DNA from: Stegostoma tigrinum
Lineage: Eukaryota
Assembly: GCF_030684315.1 (NCBI RefSeq)
Contig: NC_081365.1
Location: 72,781,603-72,845,602, forward strand
Direction of reading: 5' to 3'
DNA length: 64,000 nt
This document shows, piece after piece, positions 16,029-57,474 of the stretch. How positions within the stretch are numbered: the stretch's first letter is position 1; every line of letters begins with the position of its first letter. A model generated the notes under the pieces. The model worked only from the letters and a program-made list of their open reading frames with translations, did not search any database and was not told where the DNA came from. Both the position numbers and the translations under genes were made by a program.

Positions 16029-16031
16029 TTG

Positions 16032-17077
16032 GATAACAAGGTGTAGAGCTGGATGAACACAGCAGGCCAAGCAGCATCACAGGAGCAGGAGAGCTGACAT
16101 TTTGGGCCTAGACCCTTCTTCAGAAATGGGGGAGGGGAAGGGGGCTGTGCAATAAATAGGGAGAGAGGAGGAGGTGGCTAGAAGATGGATACAGGAGAAC
16201 ATAGGTGGAGAGGAGACCGACAGGTCAAAGAGGTGGGGATGGAGCCTGTAAAGGGGAGCATAGGTAGGGAGGAGATAGGTCAGACCAAGGAGCACGGACA
16301 GACAGGTCAGGGGGTGGCGGGATAAAGTTATGAGGTAGGAGATGGGGGTGGGGCTTGAGGTGGGAGGAGGGGATATGTGGGAGGAAAGACAGGTTAGGGA
16401 GGTGGGTACAAGTTGGGCTGGTTTTGAGATGTGGTATGGGGAAGGGAGATTTTGGAGCTTGTGAAGTCCATATTGATACCATTGGGCTGCAGGGTTCCCA
16501 AGCAGAATATGAGTTGCTGTTCCTGCAACTTTCAGATAGCATCGTTGTGACACTGCAGGAGGCCCAGGGTGGACATGTCATCTATGGAATGGGACAGGGA
16601 GTTGAAAATGGTTCATGACTGGGAGGTGCAGTTGCTTAGTGTGAACCGAGCATAGGTGTGCTGCAAAGCGGTCCCCAAGCCTCCGCGTGGTTTCTTCAAA
16701 ATCTCTCCGCCGTCCTCCCCACGCTCCACCACCACCACCACATCTCAAAACCAGCCTGTCCTTCCTCCCACCTCAAGCCCCACCTCCATCTCCTCCCAAC
16801 TAACATACACTTTTACTGGCACCATCCCCACCTCTTTGACTGGTCTGTCTCCTCTCCACCTATCTTCTCCTCTATACATTTTCTATCTACCTCCCCTTCT
16901 CTTCCTATTTATTTCAGAACCCTCTTCCCACCACCCCCCACCCAATTTCTGAAGAGGGGTCTAGGCCCGAAACATCAACCTTCCTGCTCCTATGATGCTG
17001 CATGGCCTGCTATGTTCATCCCGCTCTACACCTGGTTATCTCAGATTCTCCAGCATCTGTAGTTCCTACTATCTGAA
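16032..17077. mobile_element. Penelope-like element insertion made of two inverted 3' fragments, with 14-bp TSD
   Basis: About 16032-16692 minus and 16693-17077 plus; TSD acatcattttcttg (16018-16031) / acattattttcttg (17078-17091); hammerhead-like core near each end. Confidence 0.85.
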
Positions 17078-18060
17078 ACATTATTTTCTTGTCTGTACTT
17101 GGCACTTGTCCCCTTTTAAAATGTAAAATCTGTAAGAATACAATGTGTTTTATTGATTTTTCGTCAGACTTAGCAAGTTGCAAAATTCCTTTTTCTTTCA
17201 CTCACTCAAGAAAACCTTGGAATTAGCTCCTTAATGCTGAACTACCAAACTATGTTTTAAGTGTGAAAGAGTAGTGTGCTAAAACAGAAAGGGAGCCAGT
17301 TCAGCCTTTCTCACCTCGTCAACATTTTATCACACTGCTGTTGAAGGGAGTTGCCTGTGAGGAATTGACTGTCAGAAACCCTTCACTATCTTACGGTTCA
17401 AAAGAAATTCATCAGGGTATTGCGCTGTCGAGAAAGGCTCTGTATAAATCGAAGTCCTCTTTCCCCTAAAGTAAATTGTGAATTAAAAGGCTGTTGCCAA
17501 GGAATGATGCATTATACTATATTCCAGCTACTACCGATTACCCTATATTTGAAGGGTCGTCTGCTAGCTTCTCTGGGTAATGACTATCGTCAAAAACACT
17601 ACATGTGATAAATACGGTGTTTTGGAAGATTACCCTAATGCTACCTACGGAGGATTATGCCCTTTTTTAACTGCCACAACAGTAGAAATTGGACATTTAG
17701 CACAGAGTCGGTCTCACAGAATTAGCACTGAGTCAGCAGTGGGGTTCTGCACCAGGTTACTGCGGTGCTGCGATCCGACTTAAAAGTTCCCGGGGATTTT
17801 GCACAATGAAGGAAAAGGCTAGTAGCCAGGTAAAGGGCCACAAAACTGAAGCACAGGGCAACGACAAGTGCAGCGAAAAAGAGAGACAGAAAGATGTCGC
17901 GTGGGGGCGGGGATTAGCTGCTCTCGAGAGCCACTTTACAGGTAACCACCCAAGTATTCCCCACACCTCTTGCACCCTCCCAGTGCCCAGGCCGCGGCTG
18001 GCTGAGGTGGGAGCTCGGCCGACGAAAGCAACAGCTGCTGCCCTGTTACCCCGTCCTTAC

Positions 18061-18125
18061 CTGGCCGGAGAGATGCTCTCCTCGGAGCCACCAGCGGCCG
18101 TTCTCCTCAGCGACTTGGGGGGCAT
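18061..18125 (-). CDS. RB1: RB1 coding exon 1 (65 nt)
   Basis: MPPKSLRRTAAGGSEESISPA(R) vs human MPPKTPRKTAA; donor gtaagg; phase 2 joins exon 2. Confidence 0.92.
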
Positions 18126-18255
18126 GATGTGTGGACAATGGTGGGTGGGGCTCGGCGGCGGCAACCGTTCAGCTCGCGCTCGAGGCCACCGCTTTCGAAT
18201 GTTTAAAAGGGTGCAAGATTCTAAACCGAATAGACGCCACCACAGCCCAGAGACC

Positions 18256-18295
18256 GCGCCAAACTCACGCCGCTTCCGACTTGTGCGTCACTTCC
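18256..18295 (-). promoter_or_regulatory. RB1: RB1 core promoter module: ETS/ATF composite, second ETS site, E2F site
   Basis: Minus strand GGAAGTGACG (18295-18286), CGGAAG (18278-18273), TTTGGCGC (18263-18256). Confidence 0.8.
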
Positions 18296-18609
18296 TTAGC
18301 AGCGCCGCCAGCCCAGCCACAATGAGTCTGATTCTGGCAGCGGTGAGTCACGTCTTCGCTACATCCATAGTAAACGGTCTAGCTCCGTTATACTTCCAAA
18401 TGCTCACCGTTCTAATCCCCAGGCGATGGCGTTTACTCCGTTCGACAAAGACGATTTGGAAAAAGGAAACGAAAGAATACGGATGCTGTAAATCAGGAAC
18501 AAAAAAAACAGAAGTTTCTGGAAAAGTTCAGCAGGTCTTGGAGTTGAAAAAGATATTCAGATGATTTTGAGAATTCTCGAGGCTGAGCGGTTTGAAACGG
18601 TCAACCCTT

Positions 18610-19587
18610 TGTTAGGAAGCAGAGGTCGAACCCCTCTTATTTAAAATCGAAACACAAGCCTGCAAATCTGTTAAGGCAGGAGTCGAGGTTCCTTTCGAAT
18701 AATTAAACTGGAAACATTCCGAGAAGCTCGCCTCACCTCACCTAAAAGGGAGTAAACTTAGAGAAGGGGCAGCTAAATGAAAGAAAAACCATGATATTTG
18801 TTTTATAAGTAATAATTTATTTACTTAACCCTAACAGTGAACAAACTAACAGAATTACAACCAAACTGCACAATTCCCCTTCACTACTATTCCCTAACTG
18901 AACTGAATTCTACTGCTATGCTGTTCCAAAAATCACAAGTCCCACTTATATAAACCCAAGTAATAAGAAAATAATTTAAAATTTACTCTGTCAAAGTCTA
19001 AGTATCTTTCTTCTGTCGTTCTCCAGTCGTAAATGTCTTTCTTCCGCTGATCTGGCTGTCAGGGATGTTTTTCTGTGAGAGCTCTTAGTTGGAAATGCTG
19101 TAGTACCTTTTTTATGGATAAATGGTGCTTACGTTGAGAACTTAGTGATTTCTTGTGAGAGCTAAACGCTTATTTCTCAAATGGCAGTTCACTCACTTTT
19201 TTAAATATCCTTTTCTTATATACCTTTTGTTGAAGTATCAATTTTTCTTCAAATAGCATTGGTCTCAGATTGTCCAAACCATCAGATTTAAATTCAACTT
19301 TCTTTCAATCGCTAAGTGCTTGGTTTAAATTAGTTAACTGATTCCAGCTATTTGCCAAAACATCAAAACCAGTCTAAGGTTTCCAATCACACAGCCAATA
19401 GATATGTTTCAATTTCAGAACTGTCTGCACCATCTTCAGCTACTGACATGTTCTGTATAAATCTCAAAGCTTAGAAAAGCACTTTACCTCTTAAAAGGAG
19501 CCACATACTCCTTTCCCCATCATTTTTACAAACAAATTCTAGCTTCCTGTCTTTTGATTCATGATTACTCTACACAACTTCATAACA
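18610..19587 (-). mobile_element. Solo-LTR-like element
   Basis: TGTTA...TAACA termini; minus-strand CCAAT (19262-19258), TATATAAG (19222-19215), AATAAA (18821-18816); homologous to 24959-25711; no clear TSD. Confidence 0.6.
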
Positions 19588-19589
19588 TC

Positions 19590-20040
19590 CTACTGATGAA
19601 GAGTCATCTAGACTCAAAACGTTAGCTTATGCTGTCTGACCCACTGTGATCTCTAGCATTTATTGTTTTCAGTACAGGTTCCAGCATCTGCAGTAATTTG
19701 TCTCAACTGATTCATGTCAATTTCATTAAAGTCTTTCCAAGTGATGGTGAGGATTCTCTAAGACCAGTTCTCACTTTCCAGCTCACCAGCCTCCACACCC
19801 AAAGTACCATAAGCTGCCATTTTTACCACCTCCAGAAGCATAGTCCCATCCTCTGTTCTCCCTAGCCAGCATTCTGCAGGAACTATTCACTCCAGGCCAC
19901 CCTGGTCCACTCCCATTACCCCCATGACAGCTTCCGATGCAATTGTGGAAGGTGCAACACTTACCTGTTTCACCCTTCATTATCTCAGACCCTGGACACA
20001 CCTTTTCAGGTAAAGTGGCAATTTACCTGCACCTCATTCA
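19590..20040 (+). mobile_element. Hammerhead-like mini-element (19593-19700) followed by a decayed Penelope fragment
   Basis: ctgatga-a-gagtc-atcta-gactc-aaaacgtt; 19850-20040 resembles 22540-22710. Confidence 0.6.
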
Positions 20041-20756: not shown

Positions 20757-21010
20757 TAGGCCTGAAACGTCTGCTTTTGTGCTCCTGAGATGCTGCTCGG
20801 CCTGCTGTGTTCATCCAGCTTCACACTTTATTATCTTGGATTCTCCAGCATCTGCAATTCCCATTGTCTCTGATCACAAGCTTTCCCACCGAGGGTCTGT
20901 TTTAGTTTTTTTTCTTTAAAATGAAGGGTCTAGGCCCGAAACGTCAGCTTTTGTGGTCCTGAGTTGCTGCTGGGCCTGCTGTGTTCATCCAGCTCCACAC
21001 TTCGATATCA
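20757..21010 (+). mobile_element. Two head-to-tail copies of the Penelope-derived mini-element
   Basis: About 20757-20875 and 20921-21010 both read ...ggcc(t/c)gaaacgtc..cttttgtg.tcctgag.tgctgct.ggcctgctgtgttcatccagct. Confidence 0.8.
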
Positions 21011-46345: not shown

Positions 46346-48899
46346 GGCAACATTAGATCATGTGACTGAAAGCTAACCCCAGAGTCAAATATGACAAAGG
46401 TTGTTTATACTCTGGCTGAGGGTTAGTGCTGAAAGAGAGAAAGTGATGGATTTTGCAGCCAGGGAGCAGAGTTTGAGGTGGAGATAAGATTATGGCTTCA
46501 GATTTTCAAATTCTTAGGAATTTTCTGTTCATCCAATGCTGGATGTCAAATACCATACAGCAGTCTGAATTCAGGGAGAACAGGCAGAAGGGTCAAGAGA
46601 GGTAATAGTTCCAAACGTTGTCAATGGATAGTTTATGAAATCCACCTTAAACATTCTGCTCAATTGAAAATGTTCTCAATTTTCAAGTTTTTTCAATTCC
46701 TCACATCAAAAAGCATTCTAGGCAGTCTGGGCTGTATACTCCAATATCCTTCCAGAACATGGAAACTAAAATTGTACAATACGTGCAACTGTTATCTCAG
46801 GTTCAGAATCAGAAATCTCTGCAGCACAGCCTGGCTACACATCAGTCTTGAGGTTGTTTATGTAAACCAAAAGTTTACAGCTGGAATTCACATATGCACA
46901 CAGGAGTTGCTGATTAAGTTGTGTTTCATGCCCAATTAATAGCATTCAGCAGAAGCACTACCCTAATATCATTCATTAGCATGACAGGAGTTGGAAATGA
47001 AGCCTAACAATTATAACACGACAAACTGCCATGGCATTACCAATGAGCCTGAGATCACATCAGTGTCAGAGATGTTTTTGGCTAATTGTCGATAGCATGC
47101 TTCAAGTTATTGGACAAACAAAACACAGCATAATGTACATCAGCTAAAGGGACTAGATGTGTCACCAACATGGTGCAGGTCAGTGAGTGCGAGTATTTTA
47201 GAGTACCACCAACCACCTATCCTTGTTGATGCCATTGTCTCTGGTCCTTCAACTTTAAACTTATTATGCCTATTTTAAACTTTAACCACCTCTACCAAAT
47301 TCTCCACATTACAGTAATGTGCTGTCGCCCCACAAAGCTCCAAGATATTTAAAAAGTGAATTTATGAGAATCCCCAAATTTAATTTCTTCCATTTTGTGG
47401 CTATACCAAGGTCCTAAGCATTCTGTCTTCCAAACTCTCCTTACCTCCACTGTCCTTTAATATTTTTCTTAAAGCCTTCTGTACCAAGCTTTCAGAACTC
47501 ATCATCAACTGGTGTTCCATAGTAGTCTAATGTAGGGTCTCAAGTTGTATGCTAAGGGAACCACTCCAATCTATACAGCAAACCTCTTCGACCACATCAG
47601 CTAGAAGGACACCTAGATCTCACATTCTTGGTTCCTGCCACAAAGCTTCCACCTTTCCTCAAATCAAAAGAAAACCATTTTATAAAATTTGTTTTATTCA
47701 AAATAAAAAATCATTTGACAAACCTTTAATCACTACTGTGTTCCAAATACAGACAAGACCATTTTAGTTTTGAAAACTACATTTTTAAGACGTGGTTTAA
47801 ATTTTGAAAAGGCAGTCTATTAAAACCAAGTTATTAGATAGGCGTGAATTCCTGGATTTGGTCAGCAGGGAGAAGAGGGTGAAGAAAGAGTTCTACTGTG
47901 TTGCTGGATTGGTGGCAAGGCATTCATGCCTTGGATTACAATGGCTTCTCTAAATATCTTGAGAAGACAGGCCATAAGCACTTTGCAAGAATATTTCATA
48001 TTAAATTGAAAGCCAGTAAAAACAAAAACAGTCAGGGCGTAGGAGGAGCAGTTTAAATTATTCTTGCAATTAAAATGTTTGTAGACATCAAGACAATAAG
48101 ACATCAAGTATTCACTTCTTCCTCAAATAACAGTTTACAGGTGTTTGGGAACAGGCCATGTGCACTACCATTGCCCAGGTTATGGAAATGGGTCCATAGA
48201 GTTTAGCAAGGTTCTTTTGTCCTAACATTGCCTCTATAGGCAAAGTGTCTTTATGTGCCTCCTGCATTTTGAAAAATTAAAATTGCCAGATCTACCAAGT
48301 TGGTAATGAAACTGGCAGAGTCCTTGCAGAAACAGGAGATTAGGAAATCTGAATGCCAAGCTAGCAAACTAAGCAGAATCTTTTGCGAGCAAGAGTCCAA
48401 AGTAGCTTGGTTCCAAATTAGAACAGAACTTCGGGTCCCGTCATGTAGCTACGAAAGTTGAAAGTGCAACCAGAACAGGCGGAAAAGTCGAGTGGGGAAT
48501 TTTGGTTCGAAGTGCAAGTACTTACTAGTTAGTTAACAGAACTTTCGCTTTTTTTTGTCAAGTTCGAATTTTCTGCCACCTAAAAGATCTAATGCATGGT
48601 CTTCTCTATGCTAAACCATTTCAAAAGTTGACTTTTTTAAAAAAAAAATCCAGTTCATCAGAAATTGTAACAATTGATAATCTCTCCCGTTGTTTTCCCC
48701 GAACCCGACGTACTTCAACAATGTGACAGAAGATTTGTGCAGACACCCTGATATTGAATCTGAAAGTTGTAAGAGCGTGCACCAATAGGATTTTTTTAAA
48801 AAGTGACTTTTTTTCCCTGTACCACCCCACCTAGTGAGGGAACATTCACCAGTCCCTGATCGGATTTCCCCAAATCCAAAAGCAGAAGTGGGGTTGGCC

Positions 48900-49740
48900 C
48901 ATATGCAGGGTATTGGGCGATCGCCAAGCGTGCGTGGACTTTTCCCAACGACGCCGATGCCTCCTCCGCGGGGGGGGGGGGGGGAGGGAAAGAGACAGAC
49001 AGTCAGGACGAAGAGGATGGGCCCCAGCCACACCGTCAGCCATTTTACAGCGAACGGTCGAAGTCGACTCCTTCCCACATCCGAGGACAGGGACTATGAC
49101 CCGGGCTCAATATCCAGGGACAGCTGATGCACGGAAGGGCAAAGAGATCAGGCCACCAAAGGCCGCATTCCGGGTCACAAACTGGAAATCGAAAGCCCAG
49201 TCCCTGGTTCCAAAAACACTGTCCAGACTTTGTCCAAGGTCCGGCAATAAACTGAAAAACCACGGACAGTTCATCCCCCTCCTTTCCCCAAACAGCCCCC
49301 GCCCCCGGTAAACGTACCTTCTCGTGGATGACGAGCGCCTCGTTGTTCTCCTCTTTTTTAGGCTCCTTCTGGCTCAGCGAAGAGTTAAAGGACACTTTCA
49401 CCATGGTGGCAGTACGAGATGGCAGCGCAAACCCAACAAAAACACAACTCTCGGCTCGGCGCACTCCGGACTAAAACCCACCCCGCTTCACTTCCAGCTG
49501 GACCTCGGAATCATCCGCATGACGCAGCTCACAAACATAAATATCCGACCGCGTTCAGCAAGAAGATCCCAGGGAACGCTGCCCCGCCCCCATGTGTCGT
49601 GTGTGTGTGGGGGAGGAGGGACCTATGAGCCCCGCCCCAGGGAGGAGGGACCACCCAGTGGGCGGCACGCCCCGTCCCGCCCTTAGGGTAAAGGACTCCT
49701 GCCCCGTATGCCCAGTGGGCGTTCGAAGGGAACGTTGCCC
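48900..49740. promoter_or_regulatory. ITM2B: ITM2B CpG island and promoter
   Basis: CpG-rich; GC boxes ccccgcccc near 49581 and 49629; CRE-like tgacgca near 49520; minus-strand TATTTAT 49543-49537. Confidence 0.8.
49318..49404 (-). CDS. ITM2B: ITM2B coding exon 1 (87 nt)
   Basis: MVKVSFNSSLSQKEPKKEENNEALVIHEK vs human MVKVTFNSALAQKEAKKDE; Kozak gccaccATGg; donor gtacgt. Confidence 0.96.
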
Positions 49741-49764
49741 TCAGGTAGGTGAAGGTAAAGGTAA

Positions 49765-50022
49765 TCAGTGATAATGGGATCTGCAGATGCTGGAGAATCC
49801 GAGATAACAAAGTGTGGAGCTGGATGAACACAGCAGGCCAAGCAGCATCCCCGGAGCACAAAAGCTGACGTTTCGGGCCTAGACCCTTCATCAGAAAAGG
49901 GGGATGGGGAGAGGATTCTGAAATAAATAGGGAGCGAGGGGGAGGCGGACCGAAGATGGATAGAGGAGAAGATGGGGAGGCGATAGGTCAGTCCCGGGAG
50001 GACGGACAGGTCAAGGAAGCGG
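49765..50022 (-). mobile_element. Young Penelope 3' fragment with the best-preserved hammerhead-like core (49867-49894)
   Basis: Minus strand CTGATGA-A-GGGTCTAGGCCC-GAAAC-GTC; CpGs retained. Confidence 0.85.
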
Positions 50023-50371
50023 AATGAGTCGTTTATCTGCAAGTCGCTCGAATTGGGTTTTCGTGGTGCAGTGGTAACTTTAGACTAGGAGACCTAGGTA
50101 TTTCCAGTCTGGCAGTTAGATGCACCATTCTTCTGCCATTCTGATATTCCTATCACTTAATCTAAACTATCAACAGCCTTTCTCCCCCAGCACTCGAACC
50201 CCTCCCCAACTGTTGCAGAAGTGCTGCTCCCCCCCCACACCTGACTTCAGTTCTGATAAGCTCATCTAGACTCTTAAACGTTAGCTTGCTTTCTCTCCAT
50301 GGACGCTACCTGACTTGTTGTAGTCTCCAGCATTCCCACAAGCCCCAAAGATATCCAATAACATCTCTGAA

Positions 50372-50541
50372 CAGAGATAGTAGGAACTGCAGATGCTGGA
50401 GAATCTGAGATAACAAGGTGTAGAGCTGGATGAACACAGCAGGCCAAGCAGCATTGGAGGAGCAGGAAGGCTGGTGTTTCTGGCTTAGACCATTCTTCAT
50501 AAATCTCGAGACTCAAAACGCAGCCGTCCTGCTCCTCTGAT
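50372..50541 (-). mobile_element. Penelope-derived mini-element with short fold-back end and 11-bp TSD
   Basis: acatctctgaa at 50361-50371 and 50542-50552. Confidence 0.8.
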
Positions 50542-51042: not shown

Positions 51043-51732
51043 GATACCGTTGGGCTGCAGGATTCCCAAGCAGAATATGAGTTACAACGACGCCACCCGA
51101 AGGTTGCAGGAACAGCAACTCATATTCCGCTTGGGAACCCTGCAGCTCAATTGTATCAATGTGGACTTCACAAGCTTCAAAATCCCTCTTCCCCCACCAC
51201 ATCCCAAAACCAGCCTAGCTCATCCCAGCCTCCCTAACCTGTTCCTTCCTCCCACGTATCCTCTCTTCCCACCTCAAGCCCCACCCCCATCACTTACCGA
51301 TTAACCTCAACCCGCCACCTTTTTCTGATGAAGGGTCTAGGCCAGAAACGTCAGCCTTCCTGCTCCTCTGATGCTGCTTGGCCTGCTGTGTTCATCCAGC
51401 TCTGCACCTTGTTATCTCGGATTCCCCAGCATCTGCAGTACCTATTACCCTTGACCTGTCTGTCCCTCCTGGACTGACCTATCTCCTCCCTACCTCCCCA
51501 CCTACACTCACCTTTACTGGCTCCATCCCTGCCTCTTTGACCTGTCTGTCTCCTCTCCAACTATTTTCTCCTCTATCTATCTTCTATCTGCACCCCCCCC
51601 CCACCGTCTCCCTATTTATTTCAGAACATCCTTTCCTTCCCCCATTTCTGAAAAAGGATCTAGGCCTGAAACATCAGCCTTCCTGCTCCTCTGATGCTGC
51701 TTGGCCTGCTGTGTTCATCCAGCTCTACACCT
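51043..51732 (+). mobile_element. Penelope 3' fragment with 5' fold-back hairpin and nested mini-element (about 51322-51448)
   Basis: RRLQEQQLIFRLGTLQ..INVDFTSF C-terminus; hammerhead-like cores at 51325-51352 and 51648-51675. Confidence 0.85.
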
Positions 51733-52521
51733 AGTGCTGTGAGGCAGCAGTACTAACCACTGAGTCACCGTTCTTTGGACCTCACTGACAACTTGTATTG
51801 CAATGCTCCTGACAGGCCATTAGAGACAGACCCATCTCTTGCATGGGAGCAAGCTGCATCTCGAGGCTTTTTGCTCGTTCCCCTTAGCATTTTGGGACTG
51901 TCTGGATCCTCACAGCACGTCTGTCCTGCGTTGCCTTCCTGCATATTGCCGTATCATTCAGAAAGGGTAACCCTTTAATATTTCTGTCTTGCCTGTCTTT
52001 CATCAGGGACACAAAGCTAGGCAGCTTGTCATGGTTCAACAGTTACCTTTGACTTGAATGAGGACTACTGTCTTTAAACTTTGAAACATGGCATTCAGTT
52101 AAGGCACACTTAGTGCTTTAATCACACAAGCTGCCTACAGGCTGTAAGTATGACATTGATATAGCATGATGCAAGACAGTTTTATGTCCACCCCCTTGAC
52201 TGATCACTTCTGACAACCATGACAAGCTGCCTAGCTTTGTGTCCCTGATGAAAGACAGGCAAGACAGAAATATTAAAGGGTTACCCTTTCTGAATGATAT
52301 GGCAATATGCAGGAAGGCAACGCAGGACAGACGTGCTGTGAGGATCCAGACAGTCCCAAAATGCTAAGGGGAACGAGCAAAAAGCCTCGAGATGCAGCTT
52401 GCTCCCATGCAAGAGATGGGTCTGTCTCCAATGGCCTGTCAGGAGCATTGCAATACAAGTTGTCAGTGAGGTCCAAAGAACGGTGACTCAGTGGTTAGCA
52501 CTGCTGCCTCACAGCACCAGG
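51730..52521. repeat. Long near-perfect inverted repeat: arms 51730-52036 and 52215-52521, 178-bp spacer
   Basis: 307-bp arms, no indels, 4 transition mismatches by manual comparison; identical 67-aa ORFs on opposite strands. Confidence 0.97.
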
Positions 52522-53624: not shown

Positions 53625-54079
53625 TCCTAGACTCAGCATATTGGTGGCCACAAACTATCCAAACCAGAATGCAACACTATCCCAACTAGGAAACACAGGT
53701 GTTGGAATAGAAATATGTTTATTTATTTTTCTAATTATTCCTGTAAACTGTAATGCTGGACATTTTATTTATTTTTTTCCCTTAAGAATGTGAACTTAAT
53801 ATGTATCTCGGTATCTTTGTACCTACGTGGCGACTTGTAAACTTTTCACTCATTTGAGTACAATAAAACTAATCCAAATTACAGTTGAACTCCATGGAAT
53901 TGTAGGTAAAGGTTGTGAATGGTCTGAAATAAAAACAGAAAGCGAGGAATCAGCAAATCAGGCAACATCTAGAGTTTGTATTAATATATATTCATGATGA
54001 TAACACAAACTGTGAATTACTGTATTTCTATACTGTTATTCCTAGTAGAACAGAGTAAATTTGGCACCAGCTGTAGCTC

Positions 54080-54340
54080 CCACAGCCTGACCTGAGACGC
54101 GCAGACGCAGTGGCGGCAGTCAGCTGGCGGTAATGGCGGCTTCGGAGAGGAGTACCAAGGAGAAGCTTTTGGCTCTGCTGGACGATCTGGAAGTGTTGTG
54201 TCGGTAAGAGGCCGTATTTTGCGCCCCGAGGAGTGGATTGTGATAGAGTGTCTGCCTATTTTATTTACAAGGGATTTCCGGCCCTCGGCTCCAACGTCCA
54301 GGGCCCTCTGACTGGCTGGAAAATACCGCGGGGGAGACAA
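54080..54340. promoter_or_regulatory. MED4: Small CpG-rich MED4 promoter/exon 1 region; YY1-like AATGGCGGC over the start codon
   Basis: Local CpG enrichment around the ATG. Confidence 0.65.
54133..54203 (+). CDS. MED4: Mediator subunit 4, coding exon 1 (71 nt)
   Basis: MAASERSTKEKLLALLDDLEVLC(R) vs human MAAS...STRERLLSALEDLEVLSR; donor gtaaga; phase 2. Confidence 0.93.
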
Positions 54341-54949
54341 AACATTGAAACAGGGATGTGGAAGGAAGCTCTGGAGCACTGAGGCTGAATAAAAGATGAT
54401 GGGACGGGAGAAAGCATTTGGTGAGGGATATAAGGCAGAGGGAAGGAAAAGCGTGTTTTTTAATTTGAAGGAGTTGAGAAGCCAGTCGAGCTCTGGGTGT
54501 TCAGATTTCAGAAGATGGGAAGTTGGCATTTCAGAATAGTCTAGAGAATGATTTGAATACCACCAAACCTGTGTAAGATTTTGTATTACTTTTCAAAATA
54601 AATTAAGGATTGGTGCCAGTAAAAAATGACCGTGGACTTGATGTAAAAATCCAATTAGTTTAGTTTATAAATTTAAATACGAGAACTCGTTTCTCTGTGA
54701 TTCCATTCATGCATTCATACAGATGGTTCTTTTCTTTAAACTTAAGCAGGTGTGAAAGCCAGTTAAGTTGTATTAAGTTATTCCCTAAACACGAAGATAA
54801 GTCTCAGAATAACTAGGGACAATAAATGCCACTTGCACCCCCAATAATTAATTTAATTTATACAGTGTTGGTTCTTTGGCTGTTCTATTGATTTGCAACT
54901 ATAACTTCCAAAAGGAATGTGGAAAATTCTATTGAAATTCTATCGCCAT

Positions 54950-57322: not shown

Positions 57323-57474
57323 TTTAAAAAATACAAAAGAACTGCAGATGCTGTAAATCAGAAACCTAAACAGAAGTTCAGAGGAAGGGTCACTGAACCT
57401 GAAACATTAACTCTGATTTCTCTCCCCAGATGCTGCCAGACCTGCTGAGCTTTTCCAGCAATTTCTGTTTTTGT
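57323..57474. mobile_element. Fold-back mini-element with 15-bp TSD overlapping the MED4 exon 2 donor
   Basis: tgag(a/g)aatgaaagat at 57308-57322 and 57475-57489. Confidence 0.8.

What the first reader, a model, noticed from the sequence alone, without database searches (positions are those of the whole stretch)
49867..49894. Minimal hammerhead-ribozyme cores in Penelope-derived repeats, best copy just upstream of the ITM2B promoter
Seen: the minus strand reads CUGAUGA-A-GGG(UCUAGG)CCC-GAAAC-GUC, i.e. both conserved hammerhead core boxes, a helix II and a GUC cleavage triplet. Related copies lie at 51325-51352, 16949-16976, about 16095-16123 (minus), 20921-20945, 19593-19623 (GAGUC/GACUC helix II), 57379-57408 and 51648-51675. 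Established: Penelope-like elements carry minimal type I hammerheads with a very short palindromic helix III and can cleave as dimers. Here helix III is the loopless palindrome ACGU, which could only form between two copies. Caveats: an extra A follows CUGAUGA, and helix I is weak in this copy. Inference: this copy is co-oriented with ITM2B about 460 bp upstream of the ATG, so it could cut read-in transcripts.
Basis: partly seen in the sequence, partly recalled or inferred. Interest (0 to 1): 0.7.

Follow-up and report, generated by a model that had tools for sequence, protein, structure and literature searches.

The report
Penelope hammerhead copy with cut-site fossils
The motif is real but is one of at least 90,000 identical copies of a known minimal self-cutting RNA motif at the end of a Penelope jumping gene, likely sitting near ITM2B by chance, while across the genome thousands of inserted copies begin exactly at the predicted cut, which likely records that the ribozyme cut the element's RNA in the germ line.

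Summary
Observation confirmed. Window 49894-49867 (minus) is an intact minimal type I hammerhead core in a solo, 5'-truncated pLTR copy (about 270 bp) of a Penelope-like element. The 'extra A' is a published hallmark, not a defect. The exact 30-mer occurs 90,316 times in the genome; copies decay neutrally. About 140-390 of 20,000 genes would have such a neighbour by chance. The copy has a 2-bp helix I and no intact same-strand partner, and the gene upstream (MED4) points away. A role at ITM2B is not supported. The interest lies in the family: 3,494 copies start exactly at the predicted cut, against 252-1,320 at four control positions (5-12 times lower per copy, including a second AGCU). A larger cluster starts 4 nt before the core with an extra G, likely the capped RNA start. 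A second family shows a weaker step at its cut; an older subfamily and a third family show none. Reverse-transcriptase pausing at an inactive hairpin is not excluded. No RNA data were available. This scan has noted the cut-site signal before, in this genome and in other genomes.

The parts
49867..49894 (-). Minimal type I hammerhead core: CUGAUGA, extra A, 4-bp helix II with palindromic loop, GAAA, ACGU half of an intermolecular helix III, GUC triplet
   Evidence: 90,316 exact copies of the core plus two bases
49866..49867 (-). Predicted scissile bond (after C17 at 49867); family-wide hot spot of insertion 5' ends
   Evidence: hammerhead geometry (established knowledge)
49895..49896 (-). Helix I 5' strand; pairs with 49865-49866 (U-A and U.G here, U-A and C-G in most young copies), only 2 bp
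49898..49899 (-). Position matching the family's likely capped RNA start, about 4 nt before C3
   Evidence: inferred from clustered 5' ends with an extra G
49762..50028 (-). Whole insertion: solo 5'-truncated pLTR of a Penelope-like element, from about -152 to about +130 (long 'tail' end); ends approximate; no target-site duplication seen
49318..49404 (-). ITM2B coding exon 1, in a CpG island (48701-50100)
   Evidence: read; CpG profile; BRICHOS exons
50372..50503 (-). Nearest same-strand family copy; core broken (no C3, helix II and ACGU altered), so not a dimer partner
51043..51736 (+). Older partial tandem of the same element (coding 3' end plus two pLTRs; cores at 51325 and 51648, both damaged)
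16031..17073 (.). Head-to-head pair of older copies (cores 16096-16123 minus, 16949-16976 plus), both damaged
20921..21009 (+). Short copy truncated inside the first core box
19593..19623 (+). Copy of another family (D), helix II GAGUC/GACUC, G12 mutated
57379..57408 (+). Copy of family B (4-bp helix I AGUU/AACU), damaged
54133..54203 (+). MED4-like coding exon 1, divergent from ITM2B (end approximate)
   Evidence: name from recalled motifs

Best explanation
This is a solo, truncated end piece of a very abundant Penelope-like retrotransposon that carries the element's known minimal hammerhead motif, likely inert at this locus and likely near ITM2B by chance, while in the element's own RNA the motif likely does cut, since thousands of inserted copies begin exactly at the predicted cut site. 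Shown: motif, host element, copy number, neutral decay of copies, two fixed 3' ends (+91 and about +127 from C3), and 5' ends piled at -4 and +28. Inferred: transcription starts in the pLTR 4 nt before the core and is capped. Reverse transcription starts inside the RNA at +91 or +127 on both nicked strands and runs back to the RNA's 5' end. That end is usually the cap (copies from -4 with a G) and sometimes the ribozyme's 5'-OH product (copies from +28, no systematic G). The two cDNAs join head to head. Cutting would need a second RNA (ACGU helix III) and likely the element's protein, as helix I is 2 bp and the lone RNA prefers an inactive hairpin. Most templates were uncut.
For: Host element: an RT-type YIDD motif and a GIY-YIG match (E 0.0011, under the Pfam cut-off) upstream in L099; partial tandem in L080 with an open frame starting downstream. 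Starts with two mismatches directly upstream: +28 3,494; +23 (ACGU) 252; +30 584; +55 (GGCC) 1,320; second AGCU at +73 278. Per tail copy (denominators from the 780-kb sample): 1.8% against 0.15, 0.29, 0.35 and 0.36%. In the first 100 of 6,504 truncations between +20 and +34, 43 are at +28 (hand tally; script on the first 30: 17); the 14 non-palindromic ones compare with a mean of 3.1 at eight neighbouring positions (Poisson p 5e-6). Of 26 distinct events in loci L129-L158, 24 are true +28 starts of four junction types; 8 perfect fold-backs had 7-21 bp target-site duplications and several subfamily versions. Family E, with no palindrome after its cut: 15 of 100 at the cut against 5, 1 and 6 at the three positions before it. 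Core invariant and helices covarying across families. RNA start: 55 of 188 tail copies start at -8..+1; 7,185 have a non-C at -5, 71 of 100 listed a G.
Against: No RNA was seen. The older subfamily shows no sharp peak (about 7 of 100 at +28, about 10 at +29, hand tally). Family B, with the better 4-bp helix I, has 0 of 100 copies at its cut (about 3 expected). In family E, +35 to +38 are also frequent (9, 15, 7, 10 strict, partly A-run artefacts), and the cut class was 0 of the first 30 but 15 of the last 70 (Fisher p 0.0045). In family A, +33 and +34 reach 12-13 of 100. More than half of the +28 starts are fold-backs on the AGCU palindrome. The lone RNA folds into an inactive hairpin (-11.4 kcal/mol) whose 3' edge lies at +27 to +29. 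Anolis RNA-seq showed no reads at the cut site (PMC11167929).
Confidence: 0.62

Rival explanations
1. Same element and same inert copy, but the +28 excess comes from reverse-transcriptase pausing at the inactive hairpin (CUGAUG paired with CGUCAG) combined with joining on the AGCU palindrome; the ribozyme need not cut in vivo.
For: The hairpin has pair probabilities of about 0.4-0.5 in RNA starting at -4. Its inner 4 bp end at C17 in families A and E. The older subfamily (mostly A at N7) and family B (mostly G at N7) cannot form it fully and lack the peak.
Against: In the young family the stem runs to +29, which predicts stops at +30, where the rate is 6 times lower. It is a weak stem. Three other 4-nt palindromes, including the same AGCU at +73, give 5-12 times fewer starts. 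Blunt fold-backs at the cut occur in family E.
Confidence: 0.3
2. One reading: this copy was kept to cut read-in transcripts ahead of the ITM2B promoter.
For: Intact core, same strand as ITM2B, 463 nt from the ATG, at the edge of the CpG island. Private and subfamily changes give a 7-bp distal clamp around the motif.
Against: Chance expectation of 140-390 genes. No intact same-strand partner; helix I probability 0; fold z-score +0.33. MED4 is divergent and the next same-strand gene (NUDT15-like) lies about 35 kb away. Copies are not under selection.
Confidence: 0.03
3. The copy acts on ITM2B as a promoter, not as a cutter: it keeps the pLTR's likely start site and could begin alternative ITM2B transcripts.
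For: It spans -152 to +130 and so includes the -4 start. Drosophila Penelope pLTRs hold the promoter and can drive downstream genes (PMC2377424, passages).
Against: No RNA data. The same holds for tens of thousands of copies. CpG decay suggests methylation. ITM2B has its own CpG island.
Confidence: 0.05

Closest known systems
Metazoan PLE minimal hammerheads (Cervera and de la Pena 2014, PMC4209133; parts 1-2 of 4 read, figures and supplements not seen)
   Same: Core boxes, unpaired base after A9, G10.1-C11.1, palindromic 15.2-16.2 with no loop 3, place in the pLTR, many solo copies, opposite-strand pairs, covarying families.
   Different: Helix II 4 bp (7-8 in Schistosoma). Helix I 2 bp (4-5 there; 2 in D. 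virilis). At least 90,316 identical cores against about 9,000 in X. tropicalis and 4,000 in coelacanth. That paper had no in vivo evidence of cutting.
Poseidon of Anolis carolinensis, PAc (Frangieh et al. 2024, PMC11167929; passages and section 3 part 2 read)
   Same: Two internal reverse-transcription starts that bound the 'tail'; both target strands extended; mostly uncut RNA used; an AUG about 25 nt before the cut.
   Different: No reads at the cut site were found there. Here the AUG in the core opens only 13 codons in young copies. The clade of this element was not determined.
EN+ PLE insertion units with inverted pLTR (PMC3846280 and PMC8557442, passages read)
   Same: Inverted 5'-truncated arm, palindromic junction, 30-40 bp tail on one side, target-site duplication.
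   Different: The passages read do not link junctions to the ribozyme cut or to a capped start; PMC8557442 calls HHR function in EN+ PLEs unclear.
Non-LTR retrozymes (bioRxiv 10.64898/2026.07.22.740005; part 1 and passages read)
   Same: PLE-derived type I hammerheads; one chondrichthyan genome was sampled; L080 is a three-unit array of that kind.
   Different: The focal copy is solo, not tandem.
R2 HDV-like ribozymes (recalled; PMC6765202 passages)
   Same: A ribozyme cut that sets the 5' end of inserted copies.
   Different: Different ribozyme and element class; there it makes the normal full-length end, here a minority end.

Membership tests
Metazoan PLE minimal hammerhead | CUGANGA, GAAA and UH core | tested here: met
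Metazoan PLE minimal hammerhead | Unpaired base between A9 and G10.1; G10.1-C11.1 pair | tested here: met
   feature list
Metazoan PLE minimal hammerhead | Palindromic 15.2-16.2, no loop 3 | tested here: met
   ACGU in families A, B, D and E
Metazoan PLE minimal hammerhead | Short helix I (4-5 bp in Schistosoma families, 2 bp in the D. virilis variant) | tested here: inconclusive
   2 bp in this family, so it fits only the D. virilis-like variant; 4 bp in family B, 3 bp in family E
Metazoan PLE minimal hammerhead | Covariation of helices across families | tested here: met
   17 hand-picked copies: 81% of cells paired, 5 of 9 pairs with changes on both sides, score 0.326 (1 of 500 shuffles; slid controls <=0.17). 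Rows were chosen with a helix II filter and family E is misaligned in helix II
Metazoan PLE minimal hammerhead | Lies in the pLTR of a PLE | tested here: met
   RT-like and GIY-YIG frame upstream, partial tandems, open frame downstream
Metazoan PLE minimal hammerhead | Self-cleavage as dimer, or with protein help | not testable with these tools
   Only indirect genomic evidence
EN+ Penelope-like insertion unit | Two 3' ends 30-40 nt apart (tail), inverted 5'-truncated arms, target-site duplication | tested here: met
   Family-wide: ends at +91/92 and +126-130, fold-backs with 7-21 bp duplications. The focal copy itself shows no arm or duplication
EN+ Penelope-like insertion unit | Clade (Penelope/Poseidon or Neptune) by RT phylogeny | not tested
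   No reference proteins were fetched
Non-LTR retrozyme | Tandem units each with an intact hammerhead | tested here: not met
   Focal copy is solo; no such array in the window
Domesticated host hammerhead (amniote intronic or 3' UTR types; recalled) | Stable helices I and III so that it works as a monomer | tested here: not met
Domesticated host hammerhead (amniote intronic or 3' UTR types; recalled) | Conserved orthologous position across species | not testable with these tools
   G000 has no relatives here

The most novel reading that the evidence does not exclude
The 5' junctions of this genome's Penelope copies are a base-resolution fossil map of the element's RNA ends: a capped start at the first bases of helix I and a ribozyme-made end at GUC. 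Several thousand germ-line insertions would then prove that a minimal hammerhead with only a 2-bp helix I cuts in vivo, removing the cap from a few per cent of templates, and that cut RNA is still reverse-transcribed.
Probability: 0.6. Interest if true: 0.65.

Novelty: new member of a known kind. Interest (0 to 1): 0.45.

Why it matters
The locus itself is ordinary. The family-level pattern bears on an open question: the papers read say PLE hammerheads have low in vitro activity, no in vivo evidence and unclear function (PMC4209133, PMC8557442, PMC11167929). If the +28 peak is cleavage, junction counting gives a sequence-only assay of ribozyme activity for any PLE family and points to a decapping or self-limiting role. 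I found no paper reporting this in four searches. Lunse et al. 2017 was not held and supplements were not read, so prior publication is not excluded.

Tried and rejected
Rfam scan: no hammerhead family at E<=10. BRICHOS search of the genome missed this locus; exons were then scored directly. No RNA holder listed. Laying contigs X1-X4 on the locus was swamped by repeats and gave no presence/absence call. Laying X1 on a young copy showed joins to the -4 position with G between in 5 of 12 rows listed, and three rows at or beside the cut; too few for a histogram, and possibly the same animal. Selection on inserted copies rejected: core 0.937 against tail median 0.976 (85 young copies), 0.898 against 0.951 (41 older); CpG positions decay most; truncated copies lower the first-box values. 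One amplified palindromic master rejected: fold-backs carry different subfamily letters and their own duplications. A second capped start at +28 is disfavoured: fold-backs there carry no added base. A LINE inserted at the site as source of the +28 class rejected for the 30 loci read: no shared foreign upstream sequence. A-tailed 5' cleavage products: 0 of 197 cores. The pattern AG at +28/+29 as a splice acceptor would give starts at +30, which are few. Translations of ITM2B exon 1 were out of frame; the exon was read.

Full report
Numbering: C3 of the core is position 0 (window 49894, minus strand); the predicted cut lies between +27 and +28.

1. Observation. A strict minimal-hammerhead descriptor finds it as the only intact core in the window, and 47 cores in 78 arbitrary 10-kb loci, against 0-1 in shuffles. 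The seven other listed sites are true relatives with damaged cores. The gene to the left is a BRICHOS-domain ITM2 gene on the minus strand, ATG at 49404. MED4-like exons start at 54133 on the plus strand, NUDT15-like exons lie about 35 kb away, and an RB1-like first exon sits near 18 kb (names from recalled motifs). That the animal is a shark-like fish is recalled from the repeat and from scan notes, not shown by a call.

2. What it is. The core plus two bases occurs exactly 90,316 times in 3.2 Gb (control 0). In the 780-kb sample 188 copies carry the tail; with the window and five neighbouring loci, 140 of 187 reach through the motif and 70 of these have intact cores. Long copies run upstream into a frame with an RT-type YIDD motif and a GIY-YIG match (E 0.0011, below cut-off). 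A tandem in L080 shows an open frame starting downstream of the tail. So the motif sits in the pLTR of an endonuclease-bearing Penelope-like element. 3' ends fall at +91/92 and +126-130, the published 'tail' (PMC11167929, PMC8557442). The focal copy runs from about -152 to +130 with no partner arm or target-site duplication.

3. The ribozyme. It meets the published minimal-hammerhead features, including the extra base after A9 (PMC4209133). At least four families in this genome keep the core while helices change. On 17 chosen copies, 5 of 9 pairs show changes on both sides, score 0.326, 1 of 500 shuffles (the rows were filtered for helix II, so this leans towards the structure). That is selection on source elements. 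Inserted copies decay neutrally, with CpG positions worst. In this family helix I is only 2 bp, and a lone RNA prefers an inactive hairpin.

4. The locus. A same-strand core within 500 nt is expected for 0.7% (exact) to 1.9% (intact) of points, or 140-390 of an assumed 20,000 genes. The nearest same-strand copy is dead. The upstream gene points away. The one PLE ribozyme tested with its protein cut only when the protein was present. I give a regulatory role at ITM2B about 3%, and a promoter role about 5%.

5. 5' ends, first cluster. 55 of 188 copies begin at -8..+1, and so do 41 of 100 family-B copies at -8..-1. 7,185 exact copies have a non-C at -5; of the 100 listed 71 have G, 25 T and 4 A (hand tally). 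I fetched 20 of the 71 G rows: 18 start at -4 (12 joined to an inverted arm, 6 to flank) and 2 are point variants. In some the G could come from the arm or the target. A reverse-transcribed cap is the likely source (recalled for other retroelements), which puts the RNA start at the first bases of helix I.

6. 5' ends, second cluster. Demanding two mismatches directly upstream, 3,494 copies start at +28, against 252 at +23, 584 at +30, 1,320 at +55 and 278 at a second AGCU at +73. Per tail copy this is 1.8% against 0.15-0.36% (denominators extrapolated; the sample overstates the exact count 1.45-fold, so ratios are safer than percentages). Perfect fold-backs make about 55 of the 100 listed at +28, about 25 of 100 at +55 and about 9 of 100 at +73 (hand tallies). 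In an unselected list of 100 truncations between +20 and +34, 43 are at +28 (29 fold-back arms from 19 events, which pass the filter about twice as readily, and 14 others), 0-4 at each of +20..+27, 4-6 at +29..+32, and 12-13 at +33/+34. The 30 loci hold 26 events: 10 fold-backs, 9 other inversions, 3 direct tandems, 2 joins to flank, and 2 artefacts.

7. Results against. The older subfamily has no sharp peak under a heavy mutational background. Family B has 0 of 100 at its cut. Family E shows a step at its cut (strict tally 5, 1, 6, 15, 9, 15, 7, 10 for +31..+38, the cut at +34), but +36 includes A-run artefacts and the first 30 rows had none at the cut. The inactive hairpin ends at +27 to +29, so pausing is a real rival, and it also fits the two families without a peak. 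It predicts +30 better than +28 in the young family.

8. Mechanism, most likely. Capped RNA starts in the pLTR just before the core (inferred). The element's protein primes at +91 and +127 on both target strands (fits PMC11167929) and copies back to the RNA's 5' end. Most templates are uncut. A few per cent have been cut by the hammerhead, assembled from two RNAs and likely helped by the protein (inferred). Identity as a PLE minimal hammerhead: about 95%. Chance placement: about 92%. Cleavage as the cause of the +28 peak: about 60-65%.

9. Novelty. Motif and insertion anatomy are published. The cut-site footprint was not found in four literature searches; Lunse 2017 and all supplements were unseen. 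I reached it before consulting the scan, whose unchecked notes report the same signal in this and other genomes with mixed verdicts; these are not independent support. Papers: PMC4209133 parts 1-2 of 4; PMC11167929 passages and section 3 part 2; bioRxiv 2026.07.22.740005 part 1 and passages; PMC8557442, PMC3846280, PMC2377424 and PMC6765202 passages only.

Noticed in passing
L080:7452-8431: Three-unit tandem (period about 440 bp), each unit with an intact hammerhead and the start of the PLE frame: a retrozyme-like array and a natural dimer substrate.
   Followed up: partly
window 49875-49886 (minus): Helix II plus loop of family A is a self-complementary 12-mer; cofolding gives a 12-bp duplex between two molecules, so helix II could also swap strands in a dimer. 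Loops of family B are not palindromic.
   Followed up: partly
window 51900-52351: Two near-perfect (99%) 137-bp inverted arms (51901-52036 and 52215-52351) that contain a CUGAUGA...GAAA-like stretch with no hammerhead helices; identity not worked out.
   Followed up: no
L154 and L155, around 1500: Direct junctions in which the start of the PLE frame is joined to the tail exactly at the predicted cut, as a template jump or circular RNA would give.
   Followed up: partly
fold-back loci L130-L157: In the fold-backs examined one arm usually ends near +91 and the other near +127, which suggests a fixed pairing of priming site and target strand.
   Followed up: partly
G000:C2:58043052-58044747 and G000:C1:187869899-187870703: Tandem arrays (208-bp and 46-bp periods) built from pieces of the pLTR tail; they inflate two control counts.
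   Followed up: no
window 17701-18700 and 54001-54600: CpG islands at RB1-like (minus) and MED4-like (plus) first exons; gene order NUDT15-MED4-ITM2B-RB1 matches recalled human synteny.
   Followed up: partly
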